From Candidatus Binatia bacterium (GTDB lineage: Bacteria; Desulfobacterota; Binatia; Bin18): a DNA stretch of 64,000 bases. The position numbers were made by a program, and so were the translations under genes. Below, in pieces: positions 1,125 to 55,594 of the stretch; the stretch's first letter is position 1; every line of letters begins with the position of its first letter. The stretch is taken from positions 27,625 through 91,624 of the forward strand of contig CAXXHG010000041.1 of NCBI GenBank assembly GCA_963666315.2. The letters are read 5' to 3'. The notes beneath the pieces were generated by a model. It was not told the origin of the DNA, searched no databases, and saw only the letters and a program-made list of their open reading frames with translations.

Positions 1125-2255
1125 ATGACCACTATCTCGTATGCCAGCGCTAGCACCCCAGTGCGGGCCGATCTTGTCGAGGCGCACCAACAGTTGTGGC
1201 AAAAACTGGCTGAGCCGGGCGCCTGGTGGACGGGGGCCGAGCGGGTGGCGATTGCCGCGGAGGTGCGTAAAGCCTGGACATGCACCCTGTGCACGGACCG
1301 CAAAGCGGCGCTGTCGCCCTCTGCAGTCACCGGTGAGCACGATAATACCCACGGTGTTCTTCCGTCCGCCGTAGTCGAAATGATCCACCGCGTCACCACC
1401 GATCCGGGCCGGCTGAGTAAAGACTGGTATGAGCGGCTCGTCGCCGATGGTGTAGAGGACACTCATTATATCGAGGCACTCGGCGTTGTCGTCCGGACGG
1501 TCAGTGTCGATTCGTTTTGTCGGGGCGTGGGCATTCTCCCACATCCATTACCGACACCAATCCCAGGCGAACCGTCCCATCGGCGGCCACCACAGGCCCA
1601 CATGGATGTCTCCTGGGTGCCCATGATTACTAGTGGTCAGGAAACCGGCCCCGAGGCCGATCTGTACTGGGGCCAGCCCGCCCCAAATGTCCTGCGGTCA
1701 ATGAGTCTGGTCCCGGATGAGGTGCGTGCAAGTATGCATATTCTTATGGGGGCGCATTACATGGGACTCGCCCAGGCTATGGATCCGACGAGCAACGGAG
1801 GACGGGCCATCAGCAGAGCCCAGATCGAACTCTTAGCGTCGCGCGTCTCCGCGCTCAATGAGTGCTTCTATTGAACAACCTTCCATGGCATGCTGCTCCG
1901 GGGGAGCAGCCCAACAGGTGAGATTGATCTGGATGCAGCCGTGAATGCGAGCACGGAGAACGGCGTCCCTCACGGCGCCCTGCTGAATACGTTTGCCGAA
2001 GCCGTGCTAGGCACGGACGACAAGAAGCTCGACACGGCTCGCAACGCCATCGTCGACGCCCTTGGCCCGGCAGCGCTGGTCGATGCCTCGGCTGTTATTG
2101 CGGCATTTATGCAAATGGACCGGATGGCCGATGCCACCGGAGTTCCGTTGGATGACTTTGTGGTCGAGGCCACGAATGATTTCCGTGAAGACATCGGCCT
2201 CCACGCCTTTGACTCAGCACGGAATACGGTGGGGGACGCGGCAACTCTTCGTTGA
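1125..2255 (+). CDS. AhpD/alkylhydroperoxidase-related selenoprotein, copy 2 (376 aa, Sec250 at UGA 1872-1874)
   Basis: GGAGG RBS and ATG 1125. ORFs 1125..1874 and 1890..2255 are in frame across C-F-Y-U-T-T-F-H. N-terminal CTLC motif. Close paralog of copy 1. Confidence 0.88.
1892..1910 (+). promoter_or_regulatory. putative bacterial SECIS hairpin
   Basis: perfect 8-bp stem GCTGCTCC-GGG-GGAGCAGC; loop 25 nt after the UGA. Confidence 0.75.
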
Positions 2256-2319
2256 TGCAAGGTGTTCGGCTTCGAATTACATCCGCAGATCTTTTTTTAA
2301 TGAGGGGAGTAACACCAGT

Positions 2320-3372
2320 ATGGATTTAGGGATTTTATTCATCGCCGATACCACCGTCCATCAACAGGCAACCCTCGCCCAGCAGGCTGAGAGCAGCGGA
2401 TTCGCTTCGCTGTACATGGCCGAGGCCTACCGCAGCTGTTGGGTCCCGTTGACGGCTATGGCCGCCGCGACGAGTACAATCCGGCTCGGCCCCTACATCC
2501 TCAATGCGTACGGCCACAGTCCATTGATGACGGGTATGGCGGCGGTCGACTTCAACGAATTTAGCGGCGGGCGCCTGTTACTCGGTATCGGCGCCGGGAA
2601 TCGCCAGATCAATGAACAGTGGCATGGGGTCCCTCACGAGCGTGCGCTCACAAAGATGCGCGAATATGTGACCCTGCTGAAACTAATCGCACGCACACGC
2701 CGCGGTGAAACGCTTAAATATGCAGGCAAGATCCACCACATGGACTGGACCCCCACCGCCGATCCGGGCGACCAACCGTTTCCGGTCTATCTCGCCGCAG
2801 TCTTCCCGCGCATGACGCGCATAGCAGCGCAGGTCGCGGACGGGATTGCTGGGGGCGGAACCTTATCTGCAGAGTATTTGCGCGATGTGGTGAAGCCTCA
2901 GGCCGCCACCGCCGCCGCGGACGTTGACCGGGACCCGGCGACCATAGGCTGGAAGGCAGTGTCATTGATTGCAGTCAACCACGATCGTGAACGCGCCCGC
3001 CGCACCGCACGCGAAGCAATCTGTCATCTGTATGCGCCGCTGCCGCATCCCTATTACGAGTACACCATGCGTGAACAGGGATTCGGTGAGGCAGCCGACG
3101 CACTGTTAAAACTCATGCCGGCGGGCAAACTGGAGGCGGCTGTGGACGCTATCCCAGACGAGTGTGTCGACCGACTGACGATCGCGGGGACGCTTGAGGA
3201 CTGCCGGGAACGGATTGCTTCTTACGAGGGAGTGGTGGATGAACTCATACTCGCTAATGTGGCACCTGCAGCCGACGGTGACATGATGCGCGTCTATGCG
3301 CCACTGATGCAACTCGCCGGAGCGGCCTCTTTGGCGTCGGCGCCGCGCCCAGGGAACGGAACAAGCCCTTGA
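2320..3372 (+). CDS. LLM-class flavin/F420-dependent oxidoreductase (Mer-like)
   Basis: MDLGILF start after GGGGAG RBS; AEAY, IRLGP, SGGRLLLGIGAG and PVYLAA motifs. Confidence 0.85.
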   Translation: MDLGILFIADTTVHQQATLAQQAESSGFASLYMAEAYRSCWVPLTAMAAATSTIRLGPYILNAYGHSPLMTGMAAVDFNEFSGGRLLLGIGAGNRQINEQWHGVPHERALTKMREYVTLLKLIARTRRGETLKYAGKIHHMDWTPTADPGDQPFPVYLAAVFPRMTRIAAQVADGIAGGGTLSAEYLRDVVKPQAATAAADVDRDPATIGWKAVSLIAVNHDRERARRTAREAICHLYAPLPHPYYEYTMREQGFGEAADALLKLMPAGKLEAAVDAIPDECVDRLTIAGTLEDCRERIASYEGVVDELILANVAPAADGDMMRVYAPLMQLAGAASLASAPRPGNGTSP

Positions 3373-3561: not shown

Positions 3562-4723
3562 ATGCAAAACGGCAATGGCGCAATCACCACAGGGGCAATC
3601 GACGCGGATGGCCATGTTTTAGAGCCACCTGATTTATGGGAAACCTATTTAGAGCCCAAATATCGCGACCGGGCCCTACGGATTCGCACCAATAGGGATG
3701 CTGGAAATCCTTGAAATCGACGGCAAGCAATCCTGGACCGGTTATCCCGGTTTTCCCGGTCAGCTCGGTGGGATGGGCAAGGAGGACATCGATCCCCGGC
3801 CCGACCGAACATACTTGCGTGGCGCGCCGGCGGGTTCAATGGACCCCAAAGAACGGGTCGCCAGGTTAGATGAAGAAGGTTTGGCCAAGGCGATCTTATA
3901 TCCTACTCTGGGACTCTTCTTGGGTGAGATTAAAGATCCCGAACTGGCCACGGCCCACTGTCGCGCCTACAACCGCTGGATCCTTGATTTCTGCTCAGAG
4001 TCTGGTGGACGGCTAATCCCTATCGCCCAAGTCACACTGGACGACGATCCGCATAACGCGGCTGCGGAGTGAGAACGAGCAGTGAAAGACGGGGCCAAAG
4101 GAGGATTCTTTTTACCCTTTACTTGGAAAAAGCAGTCGCCCGGCCACCCACACTTCGATCCGTTGTGGGCGAAGGCCGAAGAACTCGGCGTTCCATTAGG
4201 CATCCATCCCACAGCCGATCCACCTGAACTCGATGTACATAAGAGGTTTTCCGAACTCGCGCAAGGTGATCAGTTCGACTTCACCTGGTATATGGACGTG
4301 CTCGTTTCCCAGGGCATGGTTCAGTCGTTTGTATCGCTCTTTCACTATGGCCTGTTCGATCGTTTTCCTCAGGTTAAATTGGTCGTGCTGGAATCCCAAG
4401 CAGGTTGGACCGGCCATATTTTGGACCGGATGGATGCCGTCTGGCGTAGCCCCTTAGGCAAAACCACCCGCATGAAGGAATCGCCCAAAACGTATTTTAA
4501 TCGCCAGTGCTGGGTTTCTGCCGATCCGGATGAGCAGATGGCCTCGGCGGTGATTAACGCGGTGGGGAGCGATCGTTTCTTCTGGGCGTCGGATTTTCCG
4601 CATCCGGATCATATCAGCCATTACATGCAAGCCTTAGGCGATATGATCGCTCCGCTGTCGGAAGAATCACAACACCAGATTCTGTGGGAGAATGTGAGTA
4701 AGGCGTATAATTTGGGCGAGTAA
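3562..4723 (+). pseudogene. amidohydrolase_2 family, disrupted
   Basis: IDADGHVLEPPDLW from ATG 3562; frameshift near 3695; in-frame TGA at 4070 in AAE*ERAV; C-terminal WASDFPHPD. Confidence 0.8.
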
Positions 4724-4773
4724 AAAATGTACGCAGAAACACCTTACGGCGTAGAGCGCGCAGACGATCCAGA

Positions 4774-4826
4774 CCAGCAGCGCTGGTCGATGTAGCCACC
4801 GTTATTGCGGCATTTATGCAGATGGA
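4774..4826 (+). repeat. relic fragment of the AhpD-related gene
   Basis: encodes PAALVDVATVIAAFMQM; matches 2067-2119 (PAALVDASAVIAAFMQM) at DNA level. Confidence 0.75.
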
Positions 4827-4839
4827 AAGGAGGCAAGCC

Positions 4840-4977
4840 ATGGAATCCCAAGCCATCTCAGCTGACTTTCCGTATGCGGCCCACTTCGTGGACGTGCACG
4901 GCTCACAGATACACTACGTCGAAGCGGGAGCGGGAGATCCCATCTTATTTCTGCACGGCAATCCCATCTCGCCGTAG
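4840..4977 (+). pseudogene. haloalkane dehalogenase N-terminal fragment
   Basis: AGGAGG RBS, then MESQAISADFPYAAHFVDVHGSQIHYVEAGAGDPILFLHGNP followed by a stop. Confidence 0.75.
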
Positions 4978-5028
4978 TGGTATTGCGACAAACCAAAAAG
5001 ATTGAGAATTAGGGATTGGGGATAGACG

Positions 5029-6244
5029 ATGCACGACAACGACCAAGCCATGCGCGATTTTGCAGCGACCCTAGCGGTACCGGAATTCGAAGACACCGCT
5101 TTCACCACACCGCCGGCGCTCCGGGAGGCGCGCGTGGCAATCGTGACGAGCGCCGCGCTCAGCAGCAGCGGCTGGATCTCACAGTGGCAGGCCGAAAAGT
5201 GGGATTTCGCAGATTTCCACTTCGAGACTCTCCCGCACGACGTACGCGATCTGGAGCTCGGCCACGTGAGTCCGAACTTTGATCGCGCTGGCTTTGCCGC
5301 CGACCTGAACGTCGTTTACCCAGTCGACCGTCTGCAGGAACTGGCTGACCAGGGCGTGATCGGCAGTGTCGCGGCCTCCCATTACTCGTTCGCCGGCAAC
5401 CAACCCGAGGGGCTGTCCGCGCTGCGGCTGGATACCGGACCGGCCTGCGCCAAAAAGATGCTCGAGGACGGAGTCGACGTCGTTCTGCTCACCCCCGTCT
5501 GACCCCTGTGCCCGCGTACCGGGTGTACGCTCGCCCACGTCTTCGAGGCTGCTGGCCTGTCAACGGTCATAATCGCGTCGATACGCGACGTCGCCGAACG
5601 CATGCACCCACCGCGGGCGCTGTATGTGGAGTACCCGTTGGGGCTGCCCCTCGGAAAGCCGCGCGACGCCATGTTTCAGCACCGCGTACTCGAAGCGGCC
5701 TTTGCGCTGTTGGAGCAGCCCACGGGACCGGTCCTCGTGGACTTTCCGGAGACGATCCAAAGCAAGGGCGGTGAGCCGTTGGCGTGCGCCCTCCCCCCCC
5801 CCCCGCTACGACCCGAACTTGCACCCGGCCATCGACGAAGCACAGGCGCTGCGCGGTGCATATAATCGAGCCGTGGCGAAAAATGGGCGGACCAGCGTGG
5901 GACGGGCGATCACTGCGGAACAGATTCCTGGAGCCATTGAGAAGTTTGTTCAAATCACCGACGGCCAAGCCTGGGATCAGGTTGGGTTTAACGCCCCGCT
6001 GATGCAGGTGACGACTGATATCCGGGCGTACTACGAAGAGCTAGCTGTCGAGTTGGTGGACGGTGGTCCGATTGCGGCATGGGGCGCCGAGCGCTGGTTC
6101 TACGATAAGACCGAGGCGGGTAAGGTGTTGTTAGCGGCGCGCGAGGAGCTAAAGAAGGCCGGCGCACCGTTCCTGATCTGGTGGCATATGGCGCCGGGGT
6201 CGCGCCAGTCCGGTATGGAGCAAATGAAGAATGTCTCGGTGTGA
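5029..6244 (+). CDS. PrdB/GrdB-family (proline/glycine reductase selenoprotein B-like) selenoprotein with C-terminal extension; Sec158 at UGA 5500-5502; frameshift in C12 tract
   Basis: VAIVTSAAL, DLNVVYPVDRLQELADQGVIG, DGVDVVLLTPV-U-PLC, then EAAGLSTV..PPRALYVEYPLGLPLG in frame. The C-terminal domain continues in the +1 frame after poly-C 5793-5804. Confidence 0.82.
5514..5530 (+). promoter_or_regulatory. putative bacterial SECIS hairpin
   Basis: GCGTAC-CGGGT-GTACGC; GGG lies 18 nt after the UGA. Confidence 0.65.
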
Positions 6245-6379
6245 TACCCGTTCAAGAAATCAGACGAGCCAGCGATGCGCACCACTATAACGGCAACGAG
6301 GTCATCCTCAGGGGCGGAGTGGGGATAGATCATTCAAGCGAGTAATAAATAAACACAAGATCGAGAAGAAGGAGAAGAT

Positions 6380-7234
6380 ATGGCAGAAAACAGTACGTAT
6401 ACACCAGCGAAAGTTTGGCAGTGGAATAAAAAGAATGGCGGCCGGTTTGCCAACATCAACCGGCCCACGGCGGGCGCGACGCACGACAAAGAACTCCCGG
6501 TCGGCGAGCACGCCTTGCAGCTCTATTCTCTGGCCACGCCCAATGGCGTCAAGGTCACCGTCCTGCTGGAAGAGCTCCTCGAGCTCGGCATCAAAGAGGC
6601 CGAGTACGATGCCTACCTGATCGACATCGGCGAGGGGGATCAATTCGGCAGTGGCTTTGTGGCCATCAACCCCAATTCCAAAATCCCCGCGCTCCTTGAC
6701 CGTAGCACTACCCCACCCACCCGCGTCTTTGAGTCAGGTGCCATGCTCGTCTATCTGGCGGAAAAATTTGGCGCCTTCCTGCCGACCGAGCCTTCCGCTC
6801 GCGCGGAATGCATGTCGTGGTTGTTCTGGCAGATGGGCAGCGCGCCCTACCTCGGCGGCGGGTTTGGGCATTTTTATGCCTACGCCCCGGAAAAGTTCGA
6901 GTACCCTATTGATCGCTATACGATGGAGGTGAAACGCCTATTAGATGTGTTGGACCGCCATCTCAGCGAACAGCAGTATTTGTGTGGTGACGACTATACG
7001 ATCGCAGACATGGCCAACTACGCCTGGTATGGCATGTTAGTAGCACACAATGGCTATGAAGCCGCAGAGTTTCTTGACGTCGGAACGTATACGCATGTGC
7101 TCCGGTGGGTGAAGGAGATTGAAGCCAGGCCTGCCGTACAACGAGGCCGACGCGTGAACAAGTCCTGGGGACCAGAGGAAGAGCAGCTCATCGAGCGACA
7201 CAGCGCAAGCGATTTCGATGCGCCGACTGCCTAA
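6380..7234 (+). CDS. yghU: glutathione-dependent disulfide-bond oxidoreductase (GST Nu class)
   Basis: FANINRPTAGATHDKELPVGEHALQLYSLATPNGVKV, NPNSKIPAL, FESGA. Confidence 0.92.
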   Translation: MAENSTYTPAKVWQWNKKNGGRFANINRPTAGATHDKELPVGEHALQLYSLATPNGVKVTVLLEELLELGIKEAEYDAYLIDIGEGDQFGSGFVAINPNSKIPALLDRSTTPPTRVFESGAMLVYLAEKFGAFLPTEPSARAECMSWLFWQMGSAPYLGGGFGHFYAYAPEKFEYPIDRYTMEVKRLLDVLDRHLSEQQYLCGDDYTIADMANYAWYGMLVAHNGYEAAEFLDVGTYTHVLRWVKEIEARPAVQRGRRVNKSWGPEEEQLIERHSASDFDAPTA

Positions 7235-7255
7235 GAATTGGAAGGAAACAGTCAT

Positions 7256-7741
7256 ATGGCAGAAGAAAAAGCAGAGCTGGGTTGGGCAGATCTAATGAAA
7301 ATGGTCGCAGAAGTCGGTTCCGACAACGGCCCAGGCTCAAAAGCATGGAAGGCGGAAGGGTCGGAGACCAAGCGCGACAACAACGGCAAAGTACCCGGCG
7401 AACTCGCAGATATGCCGGCATTGATCATCACCACTACCGGCTCGAAGACGGGCGAAAAGCGCGCCGTGCCTTTGGGCTATCAGCTCGTGGACGGTCGGCT
7501 TCTGGTTATCGCGTCGATGGCCGGCGCAGAGAGAAACCCGCCGTGGTTCAACAATCTGGTTAAAACCTCTGAGGTCTTAGTTGAAAAAGATGGTGAAAGC
7601 TTTTCAGCCAATGCTGTCGTGACACAAGGCGACGATAGGAACTATTTGTTCCAGAAAATCTGCGCGAGCGAGCCCACGTTTGCGGCATATGAAGCGCGCA
7701 CAGATCGCGTCATTCCAGTCGTAGAGTTGCGGCGCAAATAG
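7256..7741 (+). CDS. deazaflavin (F420)-dependent nitroreductase family (Ddn-like)
   Basis: ITTTGSKTGEKRAVPL, IASMAGAERNPPWFNNL, YEARTDRVIPVVEL. Confidence 0.85.
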   Translation: MAEEKAELGWADLMKMVAEVGSDNGPGSKAWKAEGSETKRDNNGKVPGELADMPALIITTTGSKTGEKRAVPLGYQLVDGRLLVIASMAGAERNPPWFNNLVKTSEVLVEKDGESFSANAVVTQGDDRNYLFQKICASEPTFAAYEARTDRVIPVVELRRK

Positions 7742-7796
7742 CAAGAAGTCTGTCCGATCGCAGTAAAGTGTACATTGTATTGCCACTGTTCCCCCC

Positions 7797-7898
7797 CCCT
7801 TCGACCCTGCTCAGGGCAGGCTTCGACAGGCTCAGGGCGAATGGGAAGAGCGGCGCTGGCCCAGGCCCGTTCGTGCTGAGCTCGTCGAAGCATGAACG
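7797..7898. repeat. REP-like palindromic element (CTTCGACAGGCTCAGGGCGAA family)
   Basis: paired inverted units; a related copy is at 26712-26744. Confidence 0.7.
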
Positions 7899-7952
7899 CG
7901 TACTGGTGTTCAATGAGGAAGCCAGCCCGTTTGTTAAGAGGGAGGGGCGGGC

Positions 7953-8420
7953 ATGGAACGAATGACTCCTGAAGAATGTCGAAGTTTCCTGCGCAGTCCG
8001 GTGCGGACCGGAAAGCTGGCCACCGTGCGGAAGGATGGCCGGCCCCTTATCGTGCCCGTGTGGTATGACCTTGAGGAGGAGACGCTCGTCTTTATGACTG
8101 GGCGGGACTCGGCCAAGGCAAGGAATATGCGCCGCGATCCCCGTGTCAGTGTGTGCGTAGATGATGAGGTGACACCATTCGCGTATGTCGAACTCGCGGG
8201 CACAGTCGTCCTGTCCAACGATGCAGACCAAATGCGCTATTGGGCAACGCGGATTGGCGGGCGCTATATGGGGCAGGAGTTAGCCGAGACCTACGGGAAA
8301 ATAAACAGCGGTGCAGGAGAACTGATCGTGCACGTCACGCCGACGCATCTGCATGGCTATAAAGATCTGACAGGTCGGTACCCACAGCCAGCGCAGCTGC
8401 AAGGGAGGGATGTCGTGTGA
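7953..8420 (+). CDS. PPOX-class F420-dependent oxidoreductase
   Basis: TGKLATVRKDGRPLIVPVWY, KARNMRRDPRVSVCVDD. Confidence 0.85.
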   Translation: MERMTPEECRSFLRSPVRTGKLATVRKDGRPLIVPVWYDLEEETLVFMTGRDSAKARNMRRDPRVSVCVDDEVTPFAYVELAGTVVLSNDADQMRYWATRIGGRYMGQELAETYGKINSGAGELIVHVTPTHLHGYKDLTGRYPQPAQLQGRDVV

Positions 8421-8425
8421 CTCAC

Positions 8426-11400
8426 TCACGGACATTGCGACTCGGCGCGTTCTTCTTCCCGCTTGCCCTGTTGCTGCCACAGTCGTGCGAGACTCGTTGC
8501 AGCGCGCAGTTCCCACGATTTGGCGGCTTGCCTCTGCGCAATGGCTATCGCCTGCAGAAAGCAGGCTTCAGTCTCGGCGGCGTTGGAGTGTGACTGCTTG
8601 AGCAACAGCTCTCCCTTGAGGCGATACAGCTCTGCCTCATAGTAACGCTCCTCAGTGCTCTCGACAAAAGCCAACCCCTCGACCACCGCTCCGAGCCCTT
8701 CCTCAACCTGCCTGTCTTGCCCGTAGGCCTCGGCCAATAAGGCAAGAAAATGCGGCCGCAAGAACTCTGCCCCGATAGCCCGCCAGGCAGCCAGATTCTC
8801 GTGGATCTGCTTGAGGCCTTCCGCTGGGTGTCCTTGCTCGGCCAGCGCCCAGCCCCGGAAGATCGTGCCTTCTCCCAAGAAGAACGGAAACCCCCGCTCG
8901 GTGGACAGCGCGATGACCTCCTCCGTCCGGCCCTGGGCAGCCTGCGCCTCCCGGCGCAACTGATGGAGCCGGACAGCAAAGGTCAAGGCAAACGCGAGAC
9001 TAAAGGGGGGAGACAGGTCATGGGCCAGACGCTGGGCCTCGTGGCTTGTCTTTAGGGCCTGGTCCGGATAGCCCAGAAGCCATAAGACCTCGGTCCTATA
9101 GGTGAGACACGCGACCCCAGGGTCAAACGACCCATAGCTGAACGCCAAAGAGTGGTGCTGCTGCGCGTCGTAGAGTGGACTCCCGTGCTCCAGGTGGGGG
9201 CGGGCCGGGGCCAGTTCTCCCAGGTGGGCCAAAGAGAGTCCTACCGCATAATGAGCCTCTACGAGAAGAGCGGAGTCGGACCCGGTTTGAGCCAAGTGCA
9301 GCAGTTGCTCGGCCAGTTCGTGCGCCTCCTTGTGCTCCGCCCGGACGAGATAAAACGCCCACAGCCCCCACAGCACCGGGAAAAGTTCAGGCGTGTCCCC
9401 CACTTGTTCACACAGCTCCCGGGCCCTCAGGTAGATACTCCCCACTTCTGGGGCCGCGTAACTCTGGGTGGCCGTGAGCGACGGGCCCAAGGCCACGTGC
9501 AGCGCGAGTTCGTGCTGCCAGCGCGCTGGACTGTCCGGCTGGGTCTGGAGCAGCTCGAGGGCCGTGGTGAAGTGTCTAATCGCTTCGTCATTCGCCGCCC
9601 GCTGCACGGCCTGGTGACCGGCTAATTCGAGATACTCGACGGCCTTCTCCGTGTTCCCACTGCGGCTATAGTGATGCGCCAGTTCACTGTAGTGATCGAC
9701 CACACTCGTTCGATACAACCCCTCCATCGCCTGGCCCGTCCGCTCATGCAAGGTCTTGCGCTGCTCCTGCAGCACGGTGCCATACGCCACATCTTGGGTC
9801 AGCGCATGCTTGAAGAGATATTCCGATTCGGGGAAGGCGGGTTGTTCATACAGAAACTCTTTCGCTTGCAGAGACGCTAAGATCTGATGCAGCTCGTCCT
9901 CCGTTTGCGGCACCACCGCGTGTACCAGGCTCACGGGAAACTGCCGACCTATCACCGAGAGCTGTTGCAGCAACTCTTTTTCCGCTGCCGTCAGCCGGTC
10001 AATCCGGGCAGCCAATACGCCTTGAACAGTGGGAGAGATATGAAACTCAGTTGGCGCCGTCTCCAACCGATAATGACCTGGCTCACCGCTGAGAGCCCCG
10101 TCTTCCGCCAACGTCTGCACCACCTCTTCCATGAAGAATGGCGTCCCTTCCGTCTTCTCTAAGATGAGCGGCTTGAGCGGCGCCAGACTGGCATCGTTTC
10201 CAAGTAAGAAGGAGAGCAGCTCTTCCGCCTCTTCTTTTCCCAGGGGCGTCAGGCGCAGCTGGGTGTAATACGTCTTCCCACCCCACTCATGTCGATACTC
10301 AGGCCGGTAGTTTGTGAGCAGTAAGAGCTGGGCTGAGGCAATATTTTCACTCAGCGTATTCAGGGCGCCCTCTGTCTCAGTGTCGAGCCAATGCAAGTCC
10401 TCACAGATGAGAATAAGCGGCTGGTTAAGGCTCTCGCGCAAAAACAGTTTCTTGAGCGCTTCAAACGTGCGCTGGCGCCGAATCTGGGCATCCATTTGCT
10501 GCAGGCTCAACTGTTCATCTTCAATGCCAAGCAGAGAAAAGAGATACGGTAGGGTCTCTTCGAGACTGCGGTCTAAGCCTAGGACCTTCCCAATGAGGCG
10601 TTCGCGCCGACTCCGTGCATCGTCCTGAGGCTCGATCTGACAATAATTTTTAAGCAGTTCAATGAGTGGGAGATAGGGCGATGATTTGCCGTGCGAGACG
10701 GCAAACGCTTCCAGCACCAGACAGCCACTTGGTGACGTGAGCTTGAACTCGTGGAACAGTCGAGACTTGCCTAGCCCCGGCTCACCCATCACCCCGACGA
10801 TTTGCCCGTGGCCCGCTTTCGGCTGCGCGAGTGCCTGCTGGATCTGGTCCATCTCGGTATGGCGCCCTACAAAGCGGCTGAGTCCGCGCCGCGCGGACTC
10901 AGCCGCGTCCTCAACGGACCCGCGCCGATGACCTCGTATACGTTGAGCGGTTCTTCGACGCCTTTGATTTCAGCAGCACCGAGCGCCTTCAGGTCAAAAT
11001 ACCCCTCCGTTAACTTCCGGGTGTATTCGCTGATCACAATCGACCCGGGGTTGGCCATCTGTTCCATGCGAGCGGCGAGGTTTGTTGAGTGGCCCACGGG
11101 CACGTAGTCGGTATGCAAGTCGTCTTTGCGAATGGACCGCACCACGACTTCCCCCGTGTTGATGCCTACTCGCATGTGGAGGGGAACACCGTGTTTGAGG
11201 CGGACTTGATCGCTATACCCCCGCATCTCTTCCTGCATCCGCCAACGCCGCATACAATGCCCGTTGCGGATGATCCTCATGCGCTATCGGCGCCCCAAAC
11301 AACGAAAAGATGCCGTCCCCCAACGCCTGCGCCACGTAGCCGTCATACCGATGCACGGCGTCCATCATGAGTTGCAGTGCAGGGTCAATGATGGCTCGTG

Positions 11401-11800
11401 CGTCTTCGGGGTCTAAGCCTTCGATAAGAGCAGTGGAGCCTTTGAGGTCGGCAAACAACGCCGTGATTGTTTTGCGCTCACCGTCTGCTGCGCCACGGGA
11501 TTCCATGGCCGCTTGTTCGGCGCGGATACGCTCGGCCAGGTGGTGTCGCGTGTACGTTGAGGGGGATTGGGGTTGCGGCTCGGGTCTGGACGATACTGGG
11601 GCTGGCTCCCCGTTACCAGTCCAAACGAGGATTTCTCCGCCTTCGTCCGTGGCTACCCGCTCCGCTTTGATCAGCTCATCCTTCAAGACGTCCAGGCGTT
11701 CGTCGTCCAAGTCAAATTCTAACTTGAGCGCGCGATACGTTACCCGCCCCTTCCCCTGGAGCAGTTCCTTCGCTTCTTTGACGATCTCCGAAAATCTCAC
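8426..11800 (-). pseudogene. class III adenylate/guanylate cyclase-AAA ATPase-TPR protein, frameshifted and C-terminally truncated
   Basis: ERKTITALFADLKGST, GDGIFSLFGAP, RVGINTGEVVV, GEPGLGKSRL Walker A and a TPR tail. Split over three frames (shifts near 11245 and 10890); the usual C-terminal helix is lost. Confidence 0.85.
10874..10906. repeat. perfect 16-bp inverted repeat inside the cyclase gene
   Basis: GCGGCTGAGTCCGCGC-C-GCGCGGACTCAGCCGC. Confidence 0.9.
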
Positions 11801-12004
11801 AGACGGGACTCCCCTTACAGACAGACTGAGCCGATAAGAGCAGGAAATGGGCGAGAGGAGAACTCGACGCGCGGTGTCTCGATTCTGTTGACCTTGACCC
11901 TTCGCCACGCCATACTCAGTTCTATACGCAGCCTTGCGGCCCGTCGTCTTTTAAACGGTATGCGCGTTTGGAGTAGATAATCGTCCGGTTATGAGAGGAG
12001 AACG

Positions 12005-15819: not shown

Positions 15820-16500
15820 CTACAGGCTTTTTCCCGGTACGACCAGTTCATTGGCCCACTGGTCAAGCTCTCGCTTTACGTCATCTAGCGTGTCGCGGCT
15901 GGCAACTAAATTAATCTGGTCGGCCCCGGCATCCCGATACTGTTTGACGGTGTCCAAGGTCACATCTTGCAATGGCGCCGCATGAATTTTGATCTCGTCC
16001 ATCGTTCGACCGTATTCGGCGAGCAGCGGTTTCAGTTTATCGACACCCGCCTGTACCTCGTCGGGCCGGTCTACGCCGTACCAACCGTCGCAATGCTTCG
16101 CCACACGCCGCAACGCCGCGAGGGATTCGCCGCCAGAATAAATCGGCGGATGGGGGTGCTGGATCGGTTTTGGGTACAGGTGACATTCGGGCAGGGTGTA
16201 GAATTCTCCCTTAAACTGGGACGGTCCCTCGGACCACAGGGTTTTCACGATCTCGATATATTCATTGGCACGCGCGCCGCGTCTCTGCCACGGAATCCCA
16301 AGGGCATCGAATTCTTCCCTCAGCCAACCGATCCCAATGCCGAAGTCGAACCGTCCGCCGGAGAGGACATCCAAGTCGGCAACGTGTTTGGCGGTATAAA
16401 CCGGATTGCGCTGGGGTATGAGGCAGATACCCGTGGCTAACCGCAGGGTGGTCGTCGTCGCCGCGATAAAGGAGAGCGCGGTAACCGGCTCTAGAAAATT
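15820..16500 (-). pseudogene. LLM-class F420-dependent oxidoreductase lacking its N-terminus
   Basis: begins abruptly at FLEPVTALSFIAATTTTLRLATG; LSGGRFDFGIGIGWLREEF; PKPIQHPHPPIY. Confidence 0.75.
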
Positions 16501-17378
16501 AACAGCTGGCGAAGAAAAAGGCATTCCTGAACGAAATGACCTGCGTGTTCCAAATAGAGTGGCGGTGGACAACCACGAATGACGCTATGTAGCTCGTCCA
16601 TAACGGGTTTGCCCAAGACAGGGTCTTACAGCCCCACGGCCATGAAACTTTTACCGGTCCATTCCTCCGCCCAGAACTGTCTCGCGCGTTGGCATTCTTC
16701 AACGCCTTGCATCTCCGGCTCCACGGGGACGAGCTGCGGAAAGCGCCGTACGCCGGCCTGATAGCTCGCGTCGGGGAAGGGAGCCGCGTACGCAGCGATG
16801 TCCATCCAGTCGAGTGCGTCCGGACAACTCACACCCATCAGGCCGGAAACAGGAAGGTCGGTGAACTGAGCGGCATAGGCTTTCCATTGGGCAAAACCAT
16901 CGCTGATGGGTTTACCGACAGGCAGACCGGTATTCATAACGATCAGACGCTTGAATCGTTCCGGCATGTCGAGCGGGAAGGTTAGCCCCAATATGCCACC
17001 CCAGTCCTGGCAGACCAGCGTAATATTTCGTAAGTCAAGGTGTTCGATGAGCCGTAGCAGCGAGTTGCGGTGAAACGAAAAGGTGATGTCGTGGTCGTTG
17101 ACGGGTTTATCCGACCTACCAAAACCGAACCAATCAGGTGCAACAATTCGGCCGCCCGCGCTCAGAAAGGGCGGGATCATTTTTCGATACAGGTAACTCC
17201 AAGTTGGCTCACCATGCAGACACAGGTAGACATCCTTCGCTATTGGAGACCCTTCGTCGATGTAGTGCATGCGACAGCCTTCGTATCCCGGCAGTGTTTC
17301 TACGTAGTGCGGGGCGTACGAAAAATTCGGCAAGTTCGCAAAGCGTTCTTCTGGCGTTCGTTTGCATAGAATACTCAT
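16491..17378 (-). pseudogene. haloalkane dehalogenase with internal TAA and lost C-terminal helix
   Basis: RTPEERF, LHGEPTWSYLYRKM, CQDWGG; AVGL*DPVLG (TAA 16626-16628) continuing in frame to AGHFVQE. Confidence 0.85.
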
Positions 17379-24638: not shown

Positions 24639-24703
24639 CGGCAGCTACTCATGTCGTCTGGCGTTTGTTATGCAGTGGATATTCTGCAACTCGCGAAGGG
24701 AGA

Positions 24704-25201
24704 ATGCATATGCACAGAAGACAATGGACTGGCTGTATTGGGGGTCTTGGCGGTCTCGTGTTGCTGCTCGGTCTGACAGGTCCGACCTGGGCGCAGGAGT
24801 CACAGCGAACGGTCGTGAGCTTTCTGGCCGAGAAGCGCAACGCCACCATGGCCACCATTCGAGAGGATGGGACATCCCAGCTCACGCCGGTGTGGTTTGT
24901 GTGGGACGGCGAACAGTTTTTCATCTCCACCACAAGCGAGCGCGCCAAGTATAAAAACCTGGTCCGTGACGCACGTATGAGTCTGTGTATCGATGATGTG
25001 ACAGGTTTCGGCTACGTCACGGCAGAAGGGAAGGCGGAAATTAGGGAAAAGGACATTTGGGACGATACACGAAAAATCCTTGTCAAATACCGAGGCGAGG
25101 AAGGCGGGGACGCCTCCCTCAAGGACATGAAAACACAGCCCCGTATTCTGGTTGTGATGAAACCCACCCGCATGGAAACGCAGGGCCTGGCGAAGAAGTA
25201 A
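24704..25201 (+). CDS. PPOX-class F420-dependent oxidoreductase with signal-peptide-like N-terminus
   Basis: MHRRQW..LVLLLGLTGPTWA|Q, then ATIREDGTSQLTPVWF, KYKNLVRDAR. Confidence 0.8.
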   Translation: MHMHRRQWTGCIGGLGGLVLLLGLTGPTWAQESQRTVVSFLAEKRNATMATIREDGTSQLTPVWFVWDGEQFFISTTSERAKYKNLVRDARMSLCIDDVTGFGYVTAEGKAEIREKDIWDDTRKILVKYRGEEGGDASLKDMKTQPRILVVMKPTRMETQGLAKK

Positions 25202-25539: not shown

Positions 25540-26550
25540 TCATAACCACCTGCTATGTGTCTGTTGTAGCAAGCTGTCCTGATCCAAAACAGCGTGGGGT
25601 TGTGGGAAAATGCCTAACTCCATATATGAGACAGCGATCTTATCGATTGCGTCAACGAATGCCGCGGTGCGGAGATCAGGGATGTCAGGCTTGCTTTTCC
25701 AGACCTCATGAATGTGTTGATAGGCGTTGATCATCGTCTCCTCTAAGCCCGAATTCACGAGATCGATTTCGTCCGTCCCGTGCACCACTTCTGCGCGTTC
25801 TGCGGCAGACAGAGTTTTACCGGTCAAGCGTTCGACCGTATGCATCAGCCGGTCAAAAGCCGACTGTTCGAAGCGCTTCCCCATGCGCCCGAGACGGACG
25901 TGCGACAGGTTTTTGAGCCATTCAAAATACGAGACTGTTACCCCACCCGCGTTGAGGTAGACGTCAGGAATGATCAGGACGCCTTTGTCTAACAGAATTT
26001 CTTCTGCCTGGGCAGTCACCGGACCATCGGCAGCCTCAGCCACAATTTTCGCTTGAATGCGGGGCGCATTGTCCTCCGTAATTTGGTTTTCAATCGCAGC
26101 GGGAATCAGGATGTCGCATTCCCGCTCTAAAACCGTCTTGCTGTTGGGAATGTTCTCCACGCCGGGGAAATTCAGAACCGACTGCGTCTCTCTTCGGTGC
26201 GCCACGACAGCCTCAACGTCCAGACCCTGCGGATGGTACAGCGCGCCCTCATACTCGGCGATGCCAACGATCCGACACCCACCTTCTTGGCAGAACTTTG
26301 CGGCATGATAGCTGACATTTCCCAACCCCTGCACGATCACCGTTTTACCGGCCAGCCCCCGAGCTAAGCCGATCTTTTTCATATCCTCGGCACTATCGCA
26401 AGCTTCACGCAGACCAAAGTATACGCCTCGTTCAGTTGCCTCGACTCGTCCGCGTATGCCCCCTTGCGCGACTGGCTTGCCGATCACACAGGCGGCAGCG
26501 TCGATCTGCCCAGGGCTGAAGGTCGCATAGGTATCAAAGATCCAGGCCAT
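25540..26550 (-). pseudogene. Glu/Leu/Phe/Val dehydrogenase, N-terminal part deleted
   Basis: starts at MAWIFDTY; [21 protein letters not shown]; substrate-binding N-terminus absent. Confidence 0.8.
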
Positions 26551-26554
26551 CTCC

Positions 26555-26687
26555 CGCCCACTAGTCCCGTAGTCAGGCGCGCGGTTTCATCATTCACGGC
26601 ATTGCGCCGTTCCGGCCGGTTGAGGATGAGGGTGGTCACCGGGCCGTCTTTTTCTACGAGAATTTTCATGCCAGATTCCTTACTCAT
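26555..26687 (-). pseudogene. enoyl-CoA hydratase N-terminal fragment fused to the GDH remnant
   Basis: KILVEKDGPVTTLILNRPERRNAVN, then an abrupt switch. Confidence 0.75.
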
Positions 26688-26774: not shown

Positions 26775-27683
26775 CTACCGAAACGCTGCGATCACTTCCT
26801 GCAACGCAACCATTTGGTTGCCGTTGGCCGACGACGGCACCAGGATGGGCGTCTTCAGGCCCGTGTCGTACCAGGCTTCTACCCCTTCCCGCACTTCAGA
26901 CACACTGCCGTATAGCGTGACCTGACTCAGCCAGCGGTCAGACATCAAAGACGGAATCTTATCGTCTTCTTTGTTGGCCATGGCTTTTTGGATGGCCCGC
27001 ATTTCCTCTTCATACCCGGCTTCGATCCAGTATTTTTGGTAATTCGGCAGCCGGACATAGGTACTGAGCGTTCGGCGATGTACTTTTGCTGCGGTTTCTT
27101 TATCGTCTGTAATCACGGTCGGGATCATATTGCCGACAAAGAAATCGTCATCCTGCATTTTCTCCTGAGGCAGAAAACTTAGCGAGGTAGACATATGAGA
27201 CAGAGCGGCATTGGCCCACACCGCGCCTTGGGAAATCTCAGCCGACAGCTTGACCATGGCCTTGCGTAAGGTGGCCAGAATAATAGGCGGCAGAGCGTCT
27301 TTTCTGCCCACGCTGGCCTGCAGGTCTGAAACAAACTGGCGCATGTCGGCCAGCGACTTGTTAGCCTGCACCTTGAGCCGATTCAGCATAGGCCCGTGAC
27401 TCACCCCAACCCCGAACCGAAAACGGCCACCAGAGACCTCATGAATAAAGGCCGCCGTCTGGGCATAGTCATACGGATGGCGCGTATACATATTGGCGAT
27501 GCTGGTGCCGAGCGGAATCTCGTGAGTGGCAAAGGCCAGGGCCTCACACAGGCCCAAGCCATCCCCAACGCTTTGGCAAAAAATACCGCTAAAGCCTTCT
27601 TTTTCGATCTGGGCTGCAACTTCCAAAGTTGCCTTTCGCCGTCCCGCCACTGCCACTAGTGCGATTGCCGGTTTTTGGGCCAT
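26775..27683 (-). CDS. LLM-class flavin-dependent oxidoreductase
   Basis: LGTSIANMYTRHP, SGGRFRFGVGVSH. Confidence 0.85.
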   Translation of the reverse strand: MAQKPAIALVAVAGRRKATLEVAAQIEKEGFSGIFCQSVGDGLGLCEALAFATHEIPLGTSIANMYTRHPYDYAQTAAFIHEVSGGRFRFGVGVSHGPMLNRLKVQANKSLADMRQFVSDLQASVGRKDALPPIILATLRKAMVKLSAEISQGAVWANAALSHMSTSLSFLPQEKMQDDDFFVGNMIPTVITDDKETAAKVHRRTLSTYVRLPNYQKYWIEAGYEEEMRAIQKAMANKEDDKIPSLMSDRWLSQVTLYGSVSEVREGVEAWYDTGLKTPILVPSSANGNQMVALQEVIAAFR

Positions 27684-27934: not shown

Positions 27935-28183
27935 ATGCATCAGCGTATTAACATCACCCTGCCGGAGGACACCATACGGTTACTAGACCGGACGGTTACT
28001 GCTGGCAGCCGGAGCCGGTTCATCGACCAGGCGATTAAGCATTATGTGCAGACGCAGTCCAAAAAGCGGCTGCGGACCTTACTCAAGGAAGGCGCAATCG
28101 CTCGAGCCGAGCGCGATCTTGCCGTAGCAGGGGAGTGGTTTCCCGTGGATGACGAGACATGGCAGCACGGCAACAACGAGTAA
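27935..28183 (+). CDS. ribbon-helix-helix antitoxin (NdoAI/MazE-like)
   Basis: RINITLPEDTIRLLD..SRSRFIDQAI; overlaps the toxin gene. Confidence 0.8.
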   Translation: MHQRINITLPEDTIRLLDRTVTAGSRSRFIDQAIKHYVQTQSKKRLRTLLKEGAIARAERDLAVAGEWFPVDDETWQHGNNE

Positions 28184-28533
28184 GTTTCATCAAACGCGGC
28201 GAAATCTATCTGGTCAATTTTGATCCGACCCTGGGCGCAGAAATCAAGAAAACCCGTCCGGCCCTGATTCTGCAAAATAATATTGCCAACCGTCATAGCC
28301 CGGTGACAATTGTCGCAGCGATCAGCTCACAGTTTGGCGAGACGCTGTATCCGACCGAAGTTCTGATCACAGCCCCGGAGGGCGGGTTAAGTGTCGATTC
28401 CGTGGCGCTGCTGAACCAGATGCGCTCCATTGACCACCGCCGCTTAGTCAAACGGTTAGGCGCCATCCGCTCCGAGACCTTGCGCCAGGTTGAACACGCC
28501 TTGCTTATCAGCCTGGGCATGATGGAGGTCTGA
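28159..28533 (+). CDS. mazF: MazF/PemK family toxin
   Basis: KRGEIYLVNFDPTLGAEIKKTRPALILQN..QMRSIDHRRL. Confidence 0.9.
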   Translation: MAARQQRVSFIKRGEIYLVNFDPTLGAEIKKTRPALILQNNIANRHSPVTIVAAISSQFGETLYPTEVLITAPEGGLSVDSVALLNQMRSIDHRRLVKRLGAIRSETLRQVEHALLISLGMMEV

Positions 28534-55410: not shown

Positions 55411-55594
55411 ACTGTCCTCCACAAATTGTTTGGTGGCGCGACTGTAGCATGTTCGTTTTTCACAGTCAGCTATTCCTCTTGTAGGGCAGCCCGATGTGGC
55501 TGTTCTTGTACTTGTGGATCCTTTCCATCCTGCACCAACCGATTAAAGACGATCTCCAAGTCTCTGACACGACCAGGTGTTTTCTGATCGGCTT

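What the first reader, a model, noticed from the sequence alone, without database searches (positions are those of the whole stretch)
5029..6244. Orphan PrdB/GrdB-like selenoprotein fused to an unknown C-terminal domain, outside any Stickland operon
The protein has the selenoprotein B signature with UxxC (U-P-L-C, plus a further Cys 5 residues later). No PrdA, GrdE, GrdA, GrdC or GrdD is nearby; the downstream neighbours are yghU and F420 enzymes. About 145 extra C-terminal residues (EAQALRGAY..DIRAYYEE..WFYDKTEAG) are not part of classical PrdB. Inference: a stand-alone Sec reductase with a different substrate and perhaps a thiol- or F420-linked electron supply.
Basis: partly seen in the sequence, partly recalled or inferred. 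Interest (0 to 1): 0.75.

Follow-up and report, generated by a model that had tools for sequence, protein, structure and literature searches.

The report
Frameshifted PrdB-like stand-alone selenoprotein gene
This is one copy, interrupted by a frameshift in a run of twelve C's, of a very widespread but functionally uncharacterised selenocysteine enzyme family that earlier ocean surveys appear to have counted as "proline reductase PrdB"; it is not a new fusion.

Summary
The PrdB-like selenoprotein signature is real. ATG 5029 is followed by an in-frame TGA at 5500-5502 (V-U-P-L-C-P-R-T-G-C). A hairpin 14 nt downstream is conserved and covaries.

5029-6244 is not one reading frame.

The N-domain plus the ~135-aa helical C-domain is the standard architecture of a large family:
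- 547 relatives were found among species-representative genomes.
- In 79 of the 80 best loci the two parts are in one frame.
- 76 of 80 carry TGA at the same codon.

Ten close relatives that span the junction read L-P-P-R (nine) or V-P-A-R (one) in frame. The window copy is therefore the exception: either a fresh pseudogene or a homopolymer error. At least four other genes in the window are broken.

No prd/grd gene lies in the 64 kb, and no neighbour is conserved across loci. The YghU and F420-enzyme neighbours recur near 0 of 80 homologues. The family fails NCBIfam's PrdB and GrdB cut-offs and has no solved structural relative. Marine selenoproteome surveys since 2005 count a "proline reductase PrdB" class, which I infer is this family.

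Verdict: a member of a known but uncharacterised kind. The stand-alone reading is supported; the novel fusion and the proposed electron supply are not.

The parts
5029..5499 (+). Coding segment from the start codon to the residue before selenocysteine (157 codons, frame 1). It forms the first part of the PrdB-like alpha/beta domain.
   Evidence: ORF list and translation. Pfam GRDB over residues 9-155. This exact 157-aa product is in the protein collection as a gene call truncated at the TGA.
5500..5502 (+). In-frame TGA read as selenocysteine (U of U-P-L-C).
   Evidence: TGA at the aligned codon in 76 of 80 homologous loci, Cys in 4 of 80. Full-length Cys forms align across it. dN/dS downstream of it is 0.11-0.16.
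5510..5534 (+). Candidate bacterial SECIS hairpin: a 6-bp stem at 5514-5519 / 5525-5530, loop CGGGU, and two outer pairs.
   Evidence: Fold. On 77 sequences (72 distinct), 99.7% of cells are paired. Pair 18-28 is U-A in 46 and C-G in 26. 0 of 500 shuffles reach the covariation score. By my reading of the printed sequences, two or more stem pairs are lost in 3 of the 4 Cys-form loci and one in the fourth.
5503..5792 (+). Rest of the PrdB-like domain in frame 1, from after Sec to the conserved Cys just before the junction (..EPLACAL).
   Evidence: Translation. Alignments A1 and A5. NCBIfam PrdB alignment extends to residue 229.
5793..5804 (+). Run of 12 C in which the reading frame changes from frame 1 to the +1 frame.
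   Evidence: Sequence. Longest homopolymer of the window. 78 of 80 loci have only two residues P-[PA] here, with L046 divergent and L076 cut off. Ten close relatives read L-P-P-R (nine) or V-P-A-R (one) in frame.
5804..6244 (+). C-terminal domain (RYDPNLHPAIDEA..DIRAYYEE..ERWFYDKTEAG..) in the +1 frame, including the stop TGA 6242-6244.
   Evidence: Translation. It aligns with the C-terminal third of all full-length homologues. All-helical in the AlphaFold model of homologue L001. No Pfam or NCBIfam family.
5863..5865 (+). TAA that ends frame 1. As sequenced, and with Sec inserted, the product would be 278 residues, the last ~20 of them out of frame.
   Evidence: Translation of frame 1 and the sequence.

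Best explanation
The locus encodes a member of a large family of stand-alone, roughly 385-395-residue PrdB-like selenoproteins of the GRDB superfamily.

Shown:
- An alpha/beta domain homologous to PrdB carries selenocysteine in a U-x-x-C motif.
- The UGA is followed 14 nt downstream by a conserved, covarying hairpin that fits a bacterial SECIS.
- A ~135-residue helical C-terminal domain is a constant part of the same polypeptide in the family.

Inferred:
- The protein works alone as a Sec-based reductase, without a PrdA-type pyruvoyl partner.
- Sec acts as the nucleophile, the Cys three residues later resolves the adduct to a selenenylsulfide, and a cellular thiol system recycles it.
- The helical domain and a near-invariant Cys at the domain junction help to shape the substrate site.
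- The substrate is unknown and is probably not D-proline.

The window's copy is out of frame as sequenced. A C12 run stands where relatives encode two prolines, which would need at most 8 consecutive C's in this position, and it shifts the C-domain into the +1 frame. I rate a real, recent lesion (fresh pseudogene) at about 50%, a homopolymer sequencing or assembly error in an intact gene at about 40%, and a real lesion bypassed by slippage at about 10%.
For: Family and architecture:
- Pfam GRDB 43.7 bits against a cut-off of 22.
- 3019 related protein clusters.
- 547 relatives in species-representative genomes, the closest being two Candidatus Binatia MAG chromosomes at 82% and 81%.
- The C-part follows the N-part in one frame in 79 of 80 loci.

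Selenocysteine:
- TGA in 76 of 80 loci and Cys in 4 of 80.
- Hairpin 99.7% paired, with U-A/C-G covariation at one pair and 0 of 500 shuffles reaching the score.
- The hairpin is weakened in all four Cys forms.
- dN/dS is 0.11-0.16 on both sides of the TGA.

Stand-alone:
- No prd, grd or sel family among 67 window ORFs.
- The largest neighbour cluster occurs in only 18 of 80 loci, and it is an AMP-binding enzyme.

Fold:
- AlphaFold model of homologue L001 has pLDDT 94.1 and pTM 0.92, with an alpha/beta part and then helices from residues 259-378.

Frameshift:
-.
- Ten close relatives at 72-89% identity over the C-part span the junction in frame. Five of them share the window's unusual tail.

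For a real lesion:
- The run is 4 bases longer than an L-P-P-R junction can hold.
- At least four other genes in the window are disrupted, including by a nonsense codon and by gene remnants.
- Two lineage relatives have only short or degenerate C-terminal ORFs.
Against: - No experiment exists for any member of the family, so the chemistry is inferred from the UxxC motif and from homology to PrdB/GrdB.
- The hairpin's compensatory change may be a single event shared by one clade, and the stem lies in coding sequence whose amino acids are themselves conserved.
- The hairpin alone is not more stable than shuffled sequence (z -0.5).
- No Rfam match was found in 4500-7000.
- Selenocysteine machinery (selA, selB, selC, selD) is not in the window: there are no tRNA genes, and the rest of the genome could not be examined.

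Against a real lesion:
- The copy shows no decay. It departs from the family at 2 of 93 conserved columns, against 0-5 in intact homologues. One of the two departures is shared by intact lineage relatives.
- Its C/N identity ratio is within the family range.
- C-part dN/dS is 0.16.
- The break sits in the longest homopolymer, the classical place for indel errors.
- Two of the other frameshifts in the window also sit in short runs (A6, GGG), as residual long-read errors would.
Confidence: 0.75

Rival explanations
1. The gene is intact in the organism and the C12 run is a sequencing or assembly miscount. The true tract would be C11, giving L-P-P-P-R, or shorter. The protein would then be a normal, working member of the family.
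For: - The break is in the longest homopolymer of the window.
- There is no sign of decay: 2 of 93 conserved columns differ, within the 0-5 range of intact homologues.
- dN/dS is 0.16 in the C-part.
- Intact lineage relatives exist.
- Other frameshifts in the window fall in an A6 run and in short G runs, at about one per 13 kb. From my own knowledge, that resembles residual long-read indel error.
Against: - All 78 loci with a readable junction and all 10 close relatives encode only two residues there. A true C11 already needs a real 3-base expansion, and C8 would need a 4-base miscount.
- The window also holds lesions that indel error cannot make: an in-frame TGA inside the amidohydrolase gene at 4070-4072, and an enoyl-CoA hydratase start fused to a truncated dehydrogenase.
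Confidence: 0.4
2. The frameshift is real, but full-length protein is still made. Either RNA polymerase slips on the C12 run, or the ribosome shifts +1 on C-rich proline codons while stalled on four prolines. The gene would then be recoded twice: UGA to Sec and a +1 shift.
For: - The required shift is +1, and it lies within CCC CCC CCC CCG.
- A P-site prolyl-tRNA that slips +1 inside the run stays fully paired, and the next codon is then the CGC (Arg) of R-Y-D-P-N-L. This is read from the sequence.
- From my own knowledge: CCC-C sites and polyproline stalls are known to be prone to +1 shifts, and homopolymers of 9 or more are prone to transcriptional slippage.
- The C-part is fully conserved.
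Against: - No relative has such a run: 0 of 78 readable junctions and 0 of 10 close relatives. The device is therefore not conserved.
- No stimulatory element was looked for or found.
- Lack of decay is equally explained by a very recent lesion or by an error.
Confidence: 0.08
3. One reading: an unusual orphan fusion of selenoprotein B with a new domain, supplied with electrons by neighbouring thiol (YghU) or F420 enzymes.
For: - The YghU equivalog lies 136 nt downstream on the same strand, followed by two F420-family genes.
- The C-domain has no known family or fold match.
Against: - The architecture is the rule in 79 of 80 loci.
- The family is very large and, by my inference, already counted in surveys.
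- The YghU, FDOR and PPOX genes recur near 0 of 80 homologous loci.
- The closest relatives L001 and L002 have a luciferase-like gene downstream instead.
Confidence: 0.05
4. It is the PrdB subunit of a genuine D-proline reductase whose other subunits are encoded elsewhere in the genome.
For: - The best NCBIfam match is PrdB (TIGR04483, E 2.6e-32).
- JGI annotation calls several relatives 'D-proline reductase (dithiol) PrdB'.
- Surveys list the class under that name.
Against: - The score is 112 bits against a cut-off of 300. Four other family members score 102-131.
- About 150 extra residues lie beyond the 238-position PrdB model.
- No PrdA-type gene is in the window, and none is among the 20 largest neighbour clusters of the 80 loci.
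- Carriers by record title are Binatia, Pseudomonadales, Porticoccaceae, SAR92 and Acidimicrobiia. From my own knowledge these are not Stickland fermenters.
Confidence: 0.03
5. The TGA is an ordinary stop. The real product is the 157-residue protein, and the downstream similarity is a relic.
For: Gene callers report 151-157-residue proteins for the window and many relatives.
Against: - The downstream frame is conserved with dN/dS 0.11-0.13 against L001 and L002.
- 76 of 80 loci keep TGA followed by about 228 in-frame codons.
- Cys replaces the TGA in 4 of 80 loci and in the ~395-residue forms.
- The SECIS-like hairpin covaries.
Confidence: 0.02

Closest known systems
PrdB, the selenoprotein subunit of clostridial D-proline reductase (NCBIfam TIGR04483)
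   Same: - Homologous alpha/beta domain: residues 30-229 align to model positions 26-219 of 238.
- Sec in a U-x-x-C motif at the same place.
- A reductive Sec/Cys chemistry is the natural inference.
   Different: - Scores 112 bits against a cut-off of 300.
- Has a ~135-150-residue helical C-domain that the 238-position model lacks.
- No prdA-type neighbour.
- Carriers are mostly marine and freshwater Gammaproteobacteria, Acidimicrobiia, Binatia and Myxococcota.
- The third Cys of the motif is not conserved: it is C, S or G in alignment A3.
GrdB / GrdF / GrdH, selenoprotein B of glycine, sarcosine and betaine reductases (Pfam PF07355; TIGR01917, TIGR01918, NF040794, NF040795)
   Same: Same superfamily. 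The window protein passes the Pfam GRDB threshold and aligns to the C-terminal half of these ~435-residue proteins, model positions ~199-416.
   Different: - Lacks their N-terminal ~200 residues.
- Scores 47-63 bits against cut-offs of 65-800.
- No grdA, grdC, grdD or grdE nearby.
The 'Proline reductase PrdB' selenoprotein class of ocean metagenome surveys (Zhang and Gladyshev: Sargasso Sea 2005, GOS 2008; also a 2021 survey)
   Same: - UxxC motif and pfam07355.
- Far more Sec than Cys forms: 42 against 1 in the Sargasso Sea, 235 against 110 in GOS (passages and tables seen). Here the ratio is 76 against 4 of 80.
- Marine plankton carriers, and one relative carries a Tara source label.
- I infer that this is the same family. 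I did not compare sequences from those papers.
   Different: In the passages I read, those papers treat the class as proline reductase. They do not mention the extra C-terminal domain, the lack of PrdA or a separate subfamily.

Membership tests
D-proline reductase PrdB (NCBIfam TIGR04483, equivalog) | Whole-protein score at or above the curated cut-off of 300 bits | tested here: not met
   112.2 bits for the window's frame-1 part. Four other family members, two of them full-length, score 102.6-131 bits.
D-proline reductase PrdB (NCBIfam TIGR04483, equivalog) | Sec (or Cys) in a U-x-x-C motif at the homologous position | tested here: met
   V-U-P-L-C at residues 157-161, lying within the aligned stretch 30-229.
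D-proline reductase PrdB (NCBIfam TIGR04483, equivalog) | Encoded with prdA (pyruvoyl proprotein) and other prd genes | tested here: not met
   No such family among 67 window ORFs. None among the 20 largest neighbour clusters of 80 loci, and no cluster occurs in more than 18 of 80. The rest of the genome was not testable.
D-proline reductase PrdB (NCBIfam TIGR04483, equivalog) | Protein of about 240 residues without further domains (model length 238) | tested here: not met
   Family members have 380-395 residues, with a helical domain after residue ~250.
Glycine/betaine/sarcosine/D-proline reductase selenoprotein B subfamily (TIGR01918) and GrdB (TIGR01917) | Score at or above the cut-offs (65.45 and 602.2 bits) | tested here: not met
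   57.8 and 47.5 bits. Relatives score 27.6-60.7 and 18.9-49.3 bits.
GRDB superfamily (Pfam PF07355) | Score at or above the gathering threshold of 22 bits | tested here: met
   43.7 bits, E 3e-11, residues 9-155 aligned to model positions 200-345 of 347.
Bacterial selenoprotein | In-frame TGA aligned with Cys in homologues, with conservation on both sides | tested here: met
   Cys in 4 of 80 loci and in the ~395-residue forms. dN/dS is 0.11-0.16 before and after the TGA.
Bacterial selenoprotein | SECIS stem-loop shortly downstream of the UGA | tested here: met
   The hairpin starts 14 nt after the UGA. It is 99.7% paired in 77 sequences, with one pair U-A in 46 and C-G in 26, and 0 of 500 shuffles reach the score. 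No Rfam match was found in 4500-7000. The spacing and the G-rich loop rule are recalled, not tested.
Bacterial selenoprotein | selA, selB, selC and selD present in the genome | not testable with these tools
   Only 64 kb are available. There are no tRNA genes and no sel family in the window.
Stand-alone ~385-395-residue PrdB-like selenoprotein family (no curated model found) | PrdB-like domain followed by the helical C-domain in one open frame | tested here: not met
   Both parts are present and well conserved, with 91 of 93 conserved columns kept. They are in two frames, joined in a C12 run. 79 of 80 relatives have them in one frame.
Stand-alone ~385-395-residue PrdB-like selenoprotein family (no curated model found) | Family motifs: U-P-x-C-x-R, the junction C-x-L-P-P-R, D-E-A, Y-Y-E-E, W-F-Y | tested here: met
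   All are present in the window's two frames. The junction carries extra prolines.

The most novel reading that the evidence does not exclude
The C12 run is real and the gene is still expressed through two recoding events in one mRNA: UGA read as selenocysteine, and a +1 shift on the poly-C / polyproline tract. The shift could be ribosomal slippage of prolyl-tRNA, or RNA polymerase slippage. Either would restore the C-terminal domain with one extra proline. The tract would then act as a dimmer or switch on an abundant selenoenzyme of unknown function.
Probability: 0.07. Interest if true: 0.7.

Novelty: new member of a known kind. Interest (0 to 1): 0.35.

Why it matters
The instance itself adds little: it is one more copy of the family, and a broken or mis-sequenced one.

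The family matters more. The class listed as 'PrdB' is among the most abundant selenoprotein classes in ocean metagenomes:
- third most abundant in the Sargasso Sea data;
- 235 Sec sequences in GOS;
- 6.4% of selenoprotein genes in a 2021 survey (passages seen).

The present data argue that this label is wrong for the family studied here:
- it fails the curated PrdB and GrdB models;
- it has an extra helical domain;
- it has no PrdA-type or any other conserved partner;
- it has no solved structural relative.

Annotation is also systematically faulty. Gene callers cut the Sec forms into pieces of about 157 and about 228 residues.

Finding the substrate of this enzyme would explain a sizeable part of marine selenium demand. 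Searches for 'PrdB-like', 'GrdB-like', 'PrdB homolog', 'proline reductase-like' and 'selenoprotein B-like', and for proline reductase together with the carrier taxa, found no paper that treats it as a separate family.

Tried and rejected
- **Rfam**, region 4500-7000 at E<=10: only two chance-level eukaryotic matches.
- **Sequence search of solved structures** with profile A2: 0 matches at E<=1.
- **Foldseek** of the L001 model against the PDB: 0 matches at E<=0.001. The best was E 0.036 with TM <=0.28, giving generic Rossmann-like proteins and no hit for the helical domain. I did not fold the C-domain on its own.
- **ESM Atlas** look-alikes of the C-domain: best score 0.85, below the level at which a hit means anything. 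The glycoside-hydrolase names were rejected as noise.
- **Conserved gene neighbourhood.** I clustered 867 neighbour ORFs within 7 kb in 80 loci. The top clusters were AMP-binding 18, sulfatase 16, SDR 15, enoyl-CoA hydratase 13 and CoA-transferase 9 of 80, at scattered positions and strands. I rejected them as functional partners because these are large families that are common in such genomes.
- **Promoter and terminator scan**, 4700-6500: nothing found.
- **Decay in the window copy.** The conserved-column test, the C/N identity ratio and dN/dS all fall within the range of intact homologues, so they cannot date the lesion or prove it real.
- **Exact look-up of the window's 206-residue +1-frame ORF**: not in the collection, so there is no independent sighting of the same frameshift.
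- **Homodimer prediction**: the tool did not accept the alignment and the step was dropped, so oligomeric state is untested.
  - DNA of the closest protein relatives (P0272-P0278).
  - The rest of the source genome.
Full report
**1. What is in the sequence**

An ORF starts at ATG 5029 and meets TGA at 5500-5502. With TGA read as selenocysteine the frame gives ..LLTPV-U-P-L-C-P-R-T-G-C-TLAHVFEAAG.. and stays open until TAA 5863-5865.

They are in the +1 frame, which ends at TGA 6242-6244.

The two frames overlap in a run of 12 C at 5793-5804, the longest homopolymer of the window; the next is C9 at 7791-7799. Frame 1 reads A-L-P-P-P-P-L-R-P-E through the run.

**2. Family assignment**

- The frame-1 part passes Pfam GRDB (PF07355, 43.7 bits against a cut-off of 22).
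- Its best NCBIfam match is PrdB (TIGR04483), at 112 bits against a cut-off of 300.
- The GrdB, GrdF and GrdH models and the general selenoprotein-B model also fall below their cut-offs.
- Four other family members behave the same way, with PrdB scores of 102.6-131 bits.
- The +1-frame part has no Pfam or NCBIfam family.

**3. The 'fusion' is the normal form of a very large family**

- A search with the frame-1 part found 3019 protein clusters at E<=0.001. The 120 listed fall into two kinds: proteins of about 345-441 residues with Cys at the Sec position, named by NCBI 'glycine/sarcosine/betaine reductase selenoprotein B family protein', and stubs of 151-157 residues at 69-97% identity.
- Alignment shows that the long forms contain the window's +1-frame part as their C-terminal third, joined through C-x-L-P-P-R-x-x-P-x-L-H-P-A-V-D-E-A.
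- A scan of one genome per species found 547 relatives. The best 80 loci were kept. The closest are two Candidatus Binatia MAG chromosomes (82% and 81%), followed by Myxococcota, Pseudomonadales, Porticoccaceae/SAR92, many Acidimicrobiia and one Chloroflexota.
- In 79 of 80 loci the C-part follows the N-part directly in the same frame. The 80th, L076, is cut by its contig end.
- A search of 1.84 billion representatives with the C-part alone gave 181 hits. Among the 150 listed I saw only fragments, full-length members, or pieces of about 225-235 residues that start after the TGA. The exceptions are one 1019-residue protein without any Pfam domain and two repetitive proteins.

**4. Selenocysteine**

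- 76 of 80 loci have TGA at the aligned codon. My motif pattern matched 74; L045 and L047 read U-L-L-C.
- 4 of 80 loci (L014, L020, L026, L040) have Cys.
- Fourteen nucleotides after the UGA lies a 6-bp hairpin, GCGUAC-CGGGU-GUACGC in the window at 5514-5530.
- On 77 sequences (72 distinct), 99.7% of cells pair. One pair is U-A in 46 and C-G in 26, another is G-C in 46 and G-U in 26. 0 of 500 shuffles reach the covariation score, and slid controls collapse.
- Reading the printed sequences of the four Cys-form loci, I find the stem weakened in all of them: two or more of the six pairs are lost in three, and one in L040.
- Caveats: the compensatory change may be one clade-level event; the stem lies in conserved coding sequence; the window hairpin alone is not unusually stable; and no Rfam match was found in 4500-7000.
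- dN/dS between the window and the Binatia homologues is 0.12 before the TGA, 0.11-0.13 after it and 0.16 in the +1-frame part. All three segments have therefore evolved as coding sequence.

**5. The frameshift**

- All 78 loci with a readable junction encode only two residues, P-[PA], before R, Q or K. None has a long C run.
- Ten closer relatives, found with the C-part at 72-89% identity, span the junction in frame: nine read ..EPLxC[SP]LPPRYDPNL.. and one (P0279) ..CPVPARFDPDL...
- Five of them share the window's unusual tail (WWHM.PGSRQS..), so they belong to the same lineage.
- An all-C coding of L-P-P-R holds at most 8 consecutive C's here. The window therefore has 4 extra bases, or 1 more than an in-frame C11 that would add one proline.

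The copy shows no decay:
- It departs from the family at 2 of 93 columns that are at least 95% conserved. Intact homologues depart at 0-5.
- One of the two departures (F to W) is shared by intact lineage relatives.
- Its C/N identity ratio is in the family range.

Two other lineage sequences look degenerate. P0122 has 108 residues, a 15-residue deletion, and V in place of the invariant W of E-R-W-F-Y. P0124 has 78 residues.

The window holds several other broken genes:
- An amidohydrolase with a frameshift near 3690 and an in-frame TGA at 4070-4072.
- A short ORF at 4805-5005 that looks like the start of an alpha/beta-hydrolase.
- A cyclase-AAA_16-TPR gene in at least three pieces.
- The start of an enoyl-CoA hydratase abutting a truncated Glu/Leu/Phe/Val dehydrogenase.
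- A nitronate monooxygenase shifted at an A6 run.

These fit real gene decay. The indels in short runs would equally fit residual long-read error. I cannot decide from the sequence. My odds are about 50% real and inactivating, 40% error, and 10% real but bypassed by slippage.

**6. Context**

- None of the three recurs within the 80 homologous loci (0 of 80 at E<=1e-10).
- Clustering 867 neighbour ORFs gave no family in more than 18 of 80 loci. The leaders are generic: AMP-binding, sulfatase, SDR, enoyl-CoA hydratase and CoA-transferase.
- No prd, grd or sel family is found among 67 window ORFs.
- The protein therefore looks self-contained. The proposed thiol or F420 electron supply has no comparative support.

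**7. Structure**

- An AlphaFold model of homologue L001 was built with a 67-sequence alignment. L001 is 84% identical to the window in the N-part and 74% in the C-part.
- The model is confident: pLDDT 94.1, pTM 0.92. An alpha/beta domain runs to about residue 232, and seven helices span residues 259-378. It is a model of the relative, not of the window protein.
- Foldseek against the PDB gave nothing at E<=0.001.
- A profile search of PDB sequences gave nothing at E<=1.
- The Atlas look-alikes were below a useful score.

**8. How it most likely works**

Shown:
- Sec in U-x-x-C within a PrdB-homologous domain.
- An invariant Cys and Arg in the motif (C155 and R157 of L001).
- A near-invariant Cys at the domain junction.
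- Many conserved polar residues, including G-H-x-S-x-N-F-D, D-E-A, Y-Y-E-E and W-F-Y.

Inferred from established knowledge of D-proline and glycine reductases:
- Sec attacks a substrate, or forms a selenenylsulfide with the Cys three residues on.
- A cellular dithiol system then reduces it.
- With no PrdA- or GrdE-type partner, the helical domain may supply the rest of the active site.
- The substrate is unknown.

**9. Comparison with what is known**

- Ocean selenoproteome surveys list 'Proline reductase PrdB' (UxxC, pfam07355) among the most abundant classes: 42 Sec against 1 Cys sequence in the Sargasso Sea (PMC1088965; passages and tables seen), and 235 Sec against 110 Cys in GOS (PMC2398784; passages and tables seen).
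- It makes up 6.4% of selenoprotein genes in a later survey (PMC9402790; passage seen).
- Reviews from 2022 and 2026 list only D-proline reductase TIGR04483 (PMC9312934 and PMC13188914; passages seen).
- A 2006 comparison lists 'proline reductase' in Anaeromyxobacter and Geobacter (PMC1794560; tables seen). A 2016 survey counts it in 110 organisms (PMC5029168; table seen).
- I infer that the marine class is the family described here. I did not compare their sequences.
- Searches for 'PrdB-like', 'GrdB-like', 'PrdB homolog', 'proline reductase-like' and 'selenoprotein B-like', and for proline reductase together with carrier taxa, found no paper that separates it from PrdB. The two papers returned concern Synergistota fluoroacetate metabolism (listing only).

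**10. Verdict**

The locus is a new, possibly defective member of a known but uncharacterised kind. Interest is modest for the instance. It is higher for the family, whose name in databases and surveys is probably wrong.

Noticed in passing
window 3570-4723 (+): An Amidohydro_2 gene appears broken twice: a frame change near 3690, and an in-frame TGA at 4070-4072 inside ..AAAE*ERAVKDGAKG... From recall of the family, a Leu is expected at that position. Only the 213-residue tail (4082-4723) matches Pfam, at profile positions 105-289.
   Followed up: partly
window 4805-5005 (+): A 66-codon ORF directly upstream of the selenoprotein gene ends ..HYVEAGAGDPILFLHGNPISP*. By eye and from recall, it looks like the first part of an alpha/beta-hydrolase of the haloalkane-dehalogenase type. 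It has no Pfam hit at E<=0.001.
   Followed up: partly
window 8426-11908 (-): An adenylate/guanylate cyclase, AAA_16 and TPR protein is split over at least three ORFs (11908-11213, 11280-10867, 10852-8426). One frame change lies at ..ALYAALA|MQEEM.., and the AAA_16 frame stays open upstream of its ATG.
   Followed up: partly
window about 26550-26680 (-): The first ~30 codons of an enoyl-CoA hydratase-like gene ([28 protein letters not shown]..) run into a Glu/Leu/Phe/Val dehydrogenase that lacks its N-terminal domain. This looks like a deletion or rearrangement scar rather than a read error.
   Followed up: partly
window 44079-45189 (+): A nitronate monooxygenase gene changes frame at an A6 run (..DDFQKK|EAIVEA..). 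Pfam covers only profile positions 2-241 of 331 in the first ORF.
   Followed up: partly
L001 951-1277 (+): The closest relative (Binatia MAG chromosome OX638322) carries a truncated second copy of about the first 115 codons of its own homologue, 9 kb upstream of the full gene. After ..VIGSLA it runs into unrelated sequence.
   Followed up: partly
L008 16796-17716 (+); also L007 and L011: A second, 32%-identical PrdB-like selenoprotein paralogue (..LLLVPL-U-P-V-C-HQTVC.., about 290 residues to its likely TGA stop). The helical C-domain is not detected at E<=1e-5. It sits about 6 kb downstream of the family member, between a large unannotated ORF and a large gene that looks CoA-transferase-like by eye (neither was scanned). 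Further stand-alone subfamilies therefore exist.
   Followed up: partly
window 2062-3372, 15823-16572, 26778-27683, 53110-54054, 54418-55422; 7238-8420; 24665-25201: The window is rich in F420-type families: five luciferase-like monooxygenase ORFs, one of them matching only profile positions 51-224; a deazaflavin-dependent nitroreductase-family protein; and two PPOX-class proteins.
   Followed up: partly
window 28159-28533 (+): A PemK/MazF-family toxin ORF (Pfam E 1.3e-30). No antitoxin partner was looked for.
   Followed up: no
protein P0160: A 1019-residue database protein contains the junction and the helical C-domain (residues 687-815). It has no detectable PrdB-like N-domain and no Pfam family. 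It may be a gene-calling artefact or a different fusion.
   Followed up: partly
protein searches: Sec-containing members of this family are systematically mis-annotated in public collections as two proteins: a stub of about 151-157 residues ending at the TGA, and a 'hypothetical protein' of about 205-240 residues starting after it.
   Followed up: yes
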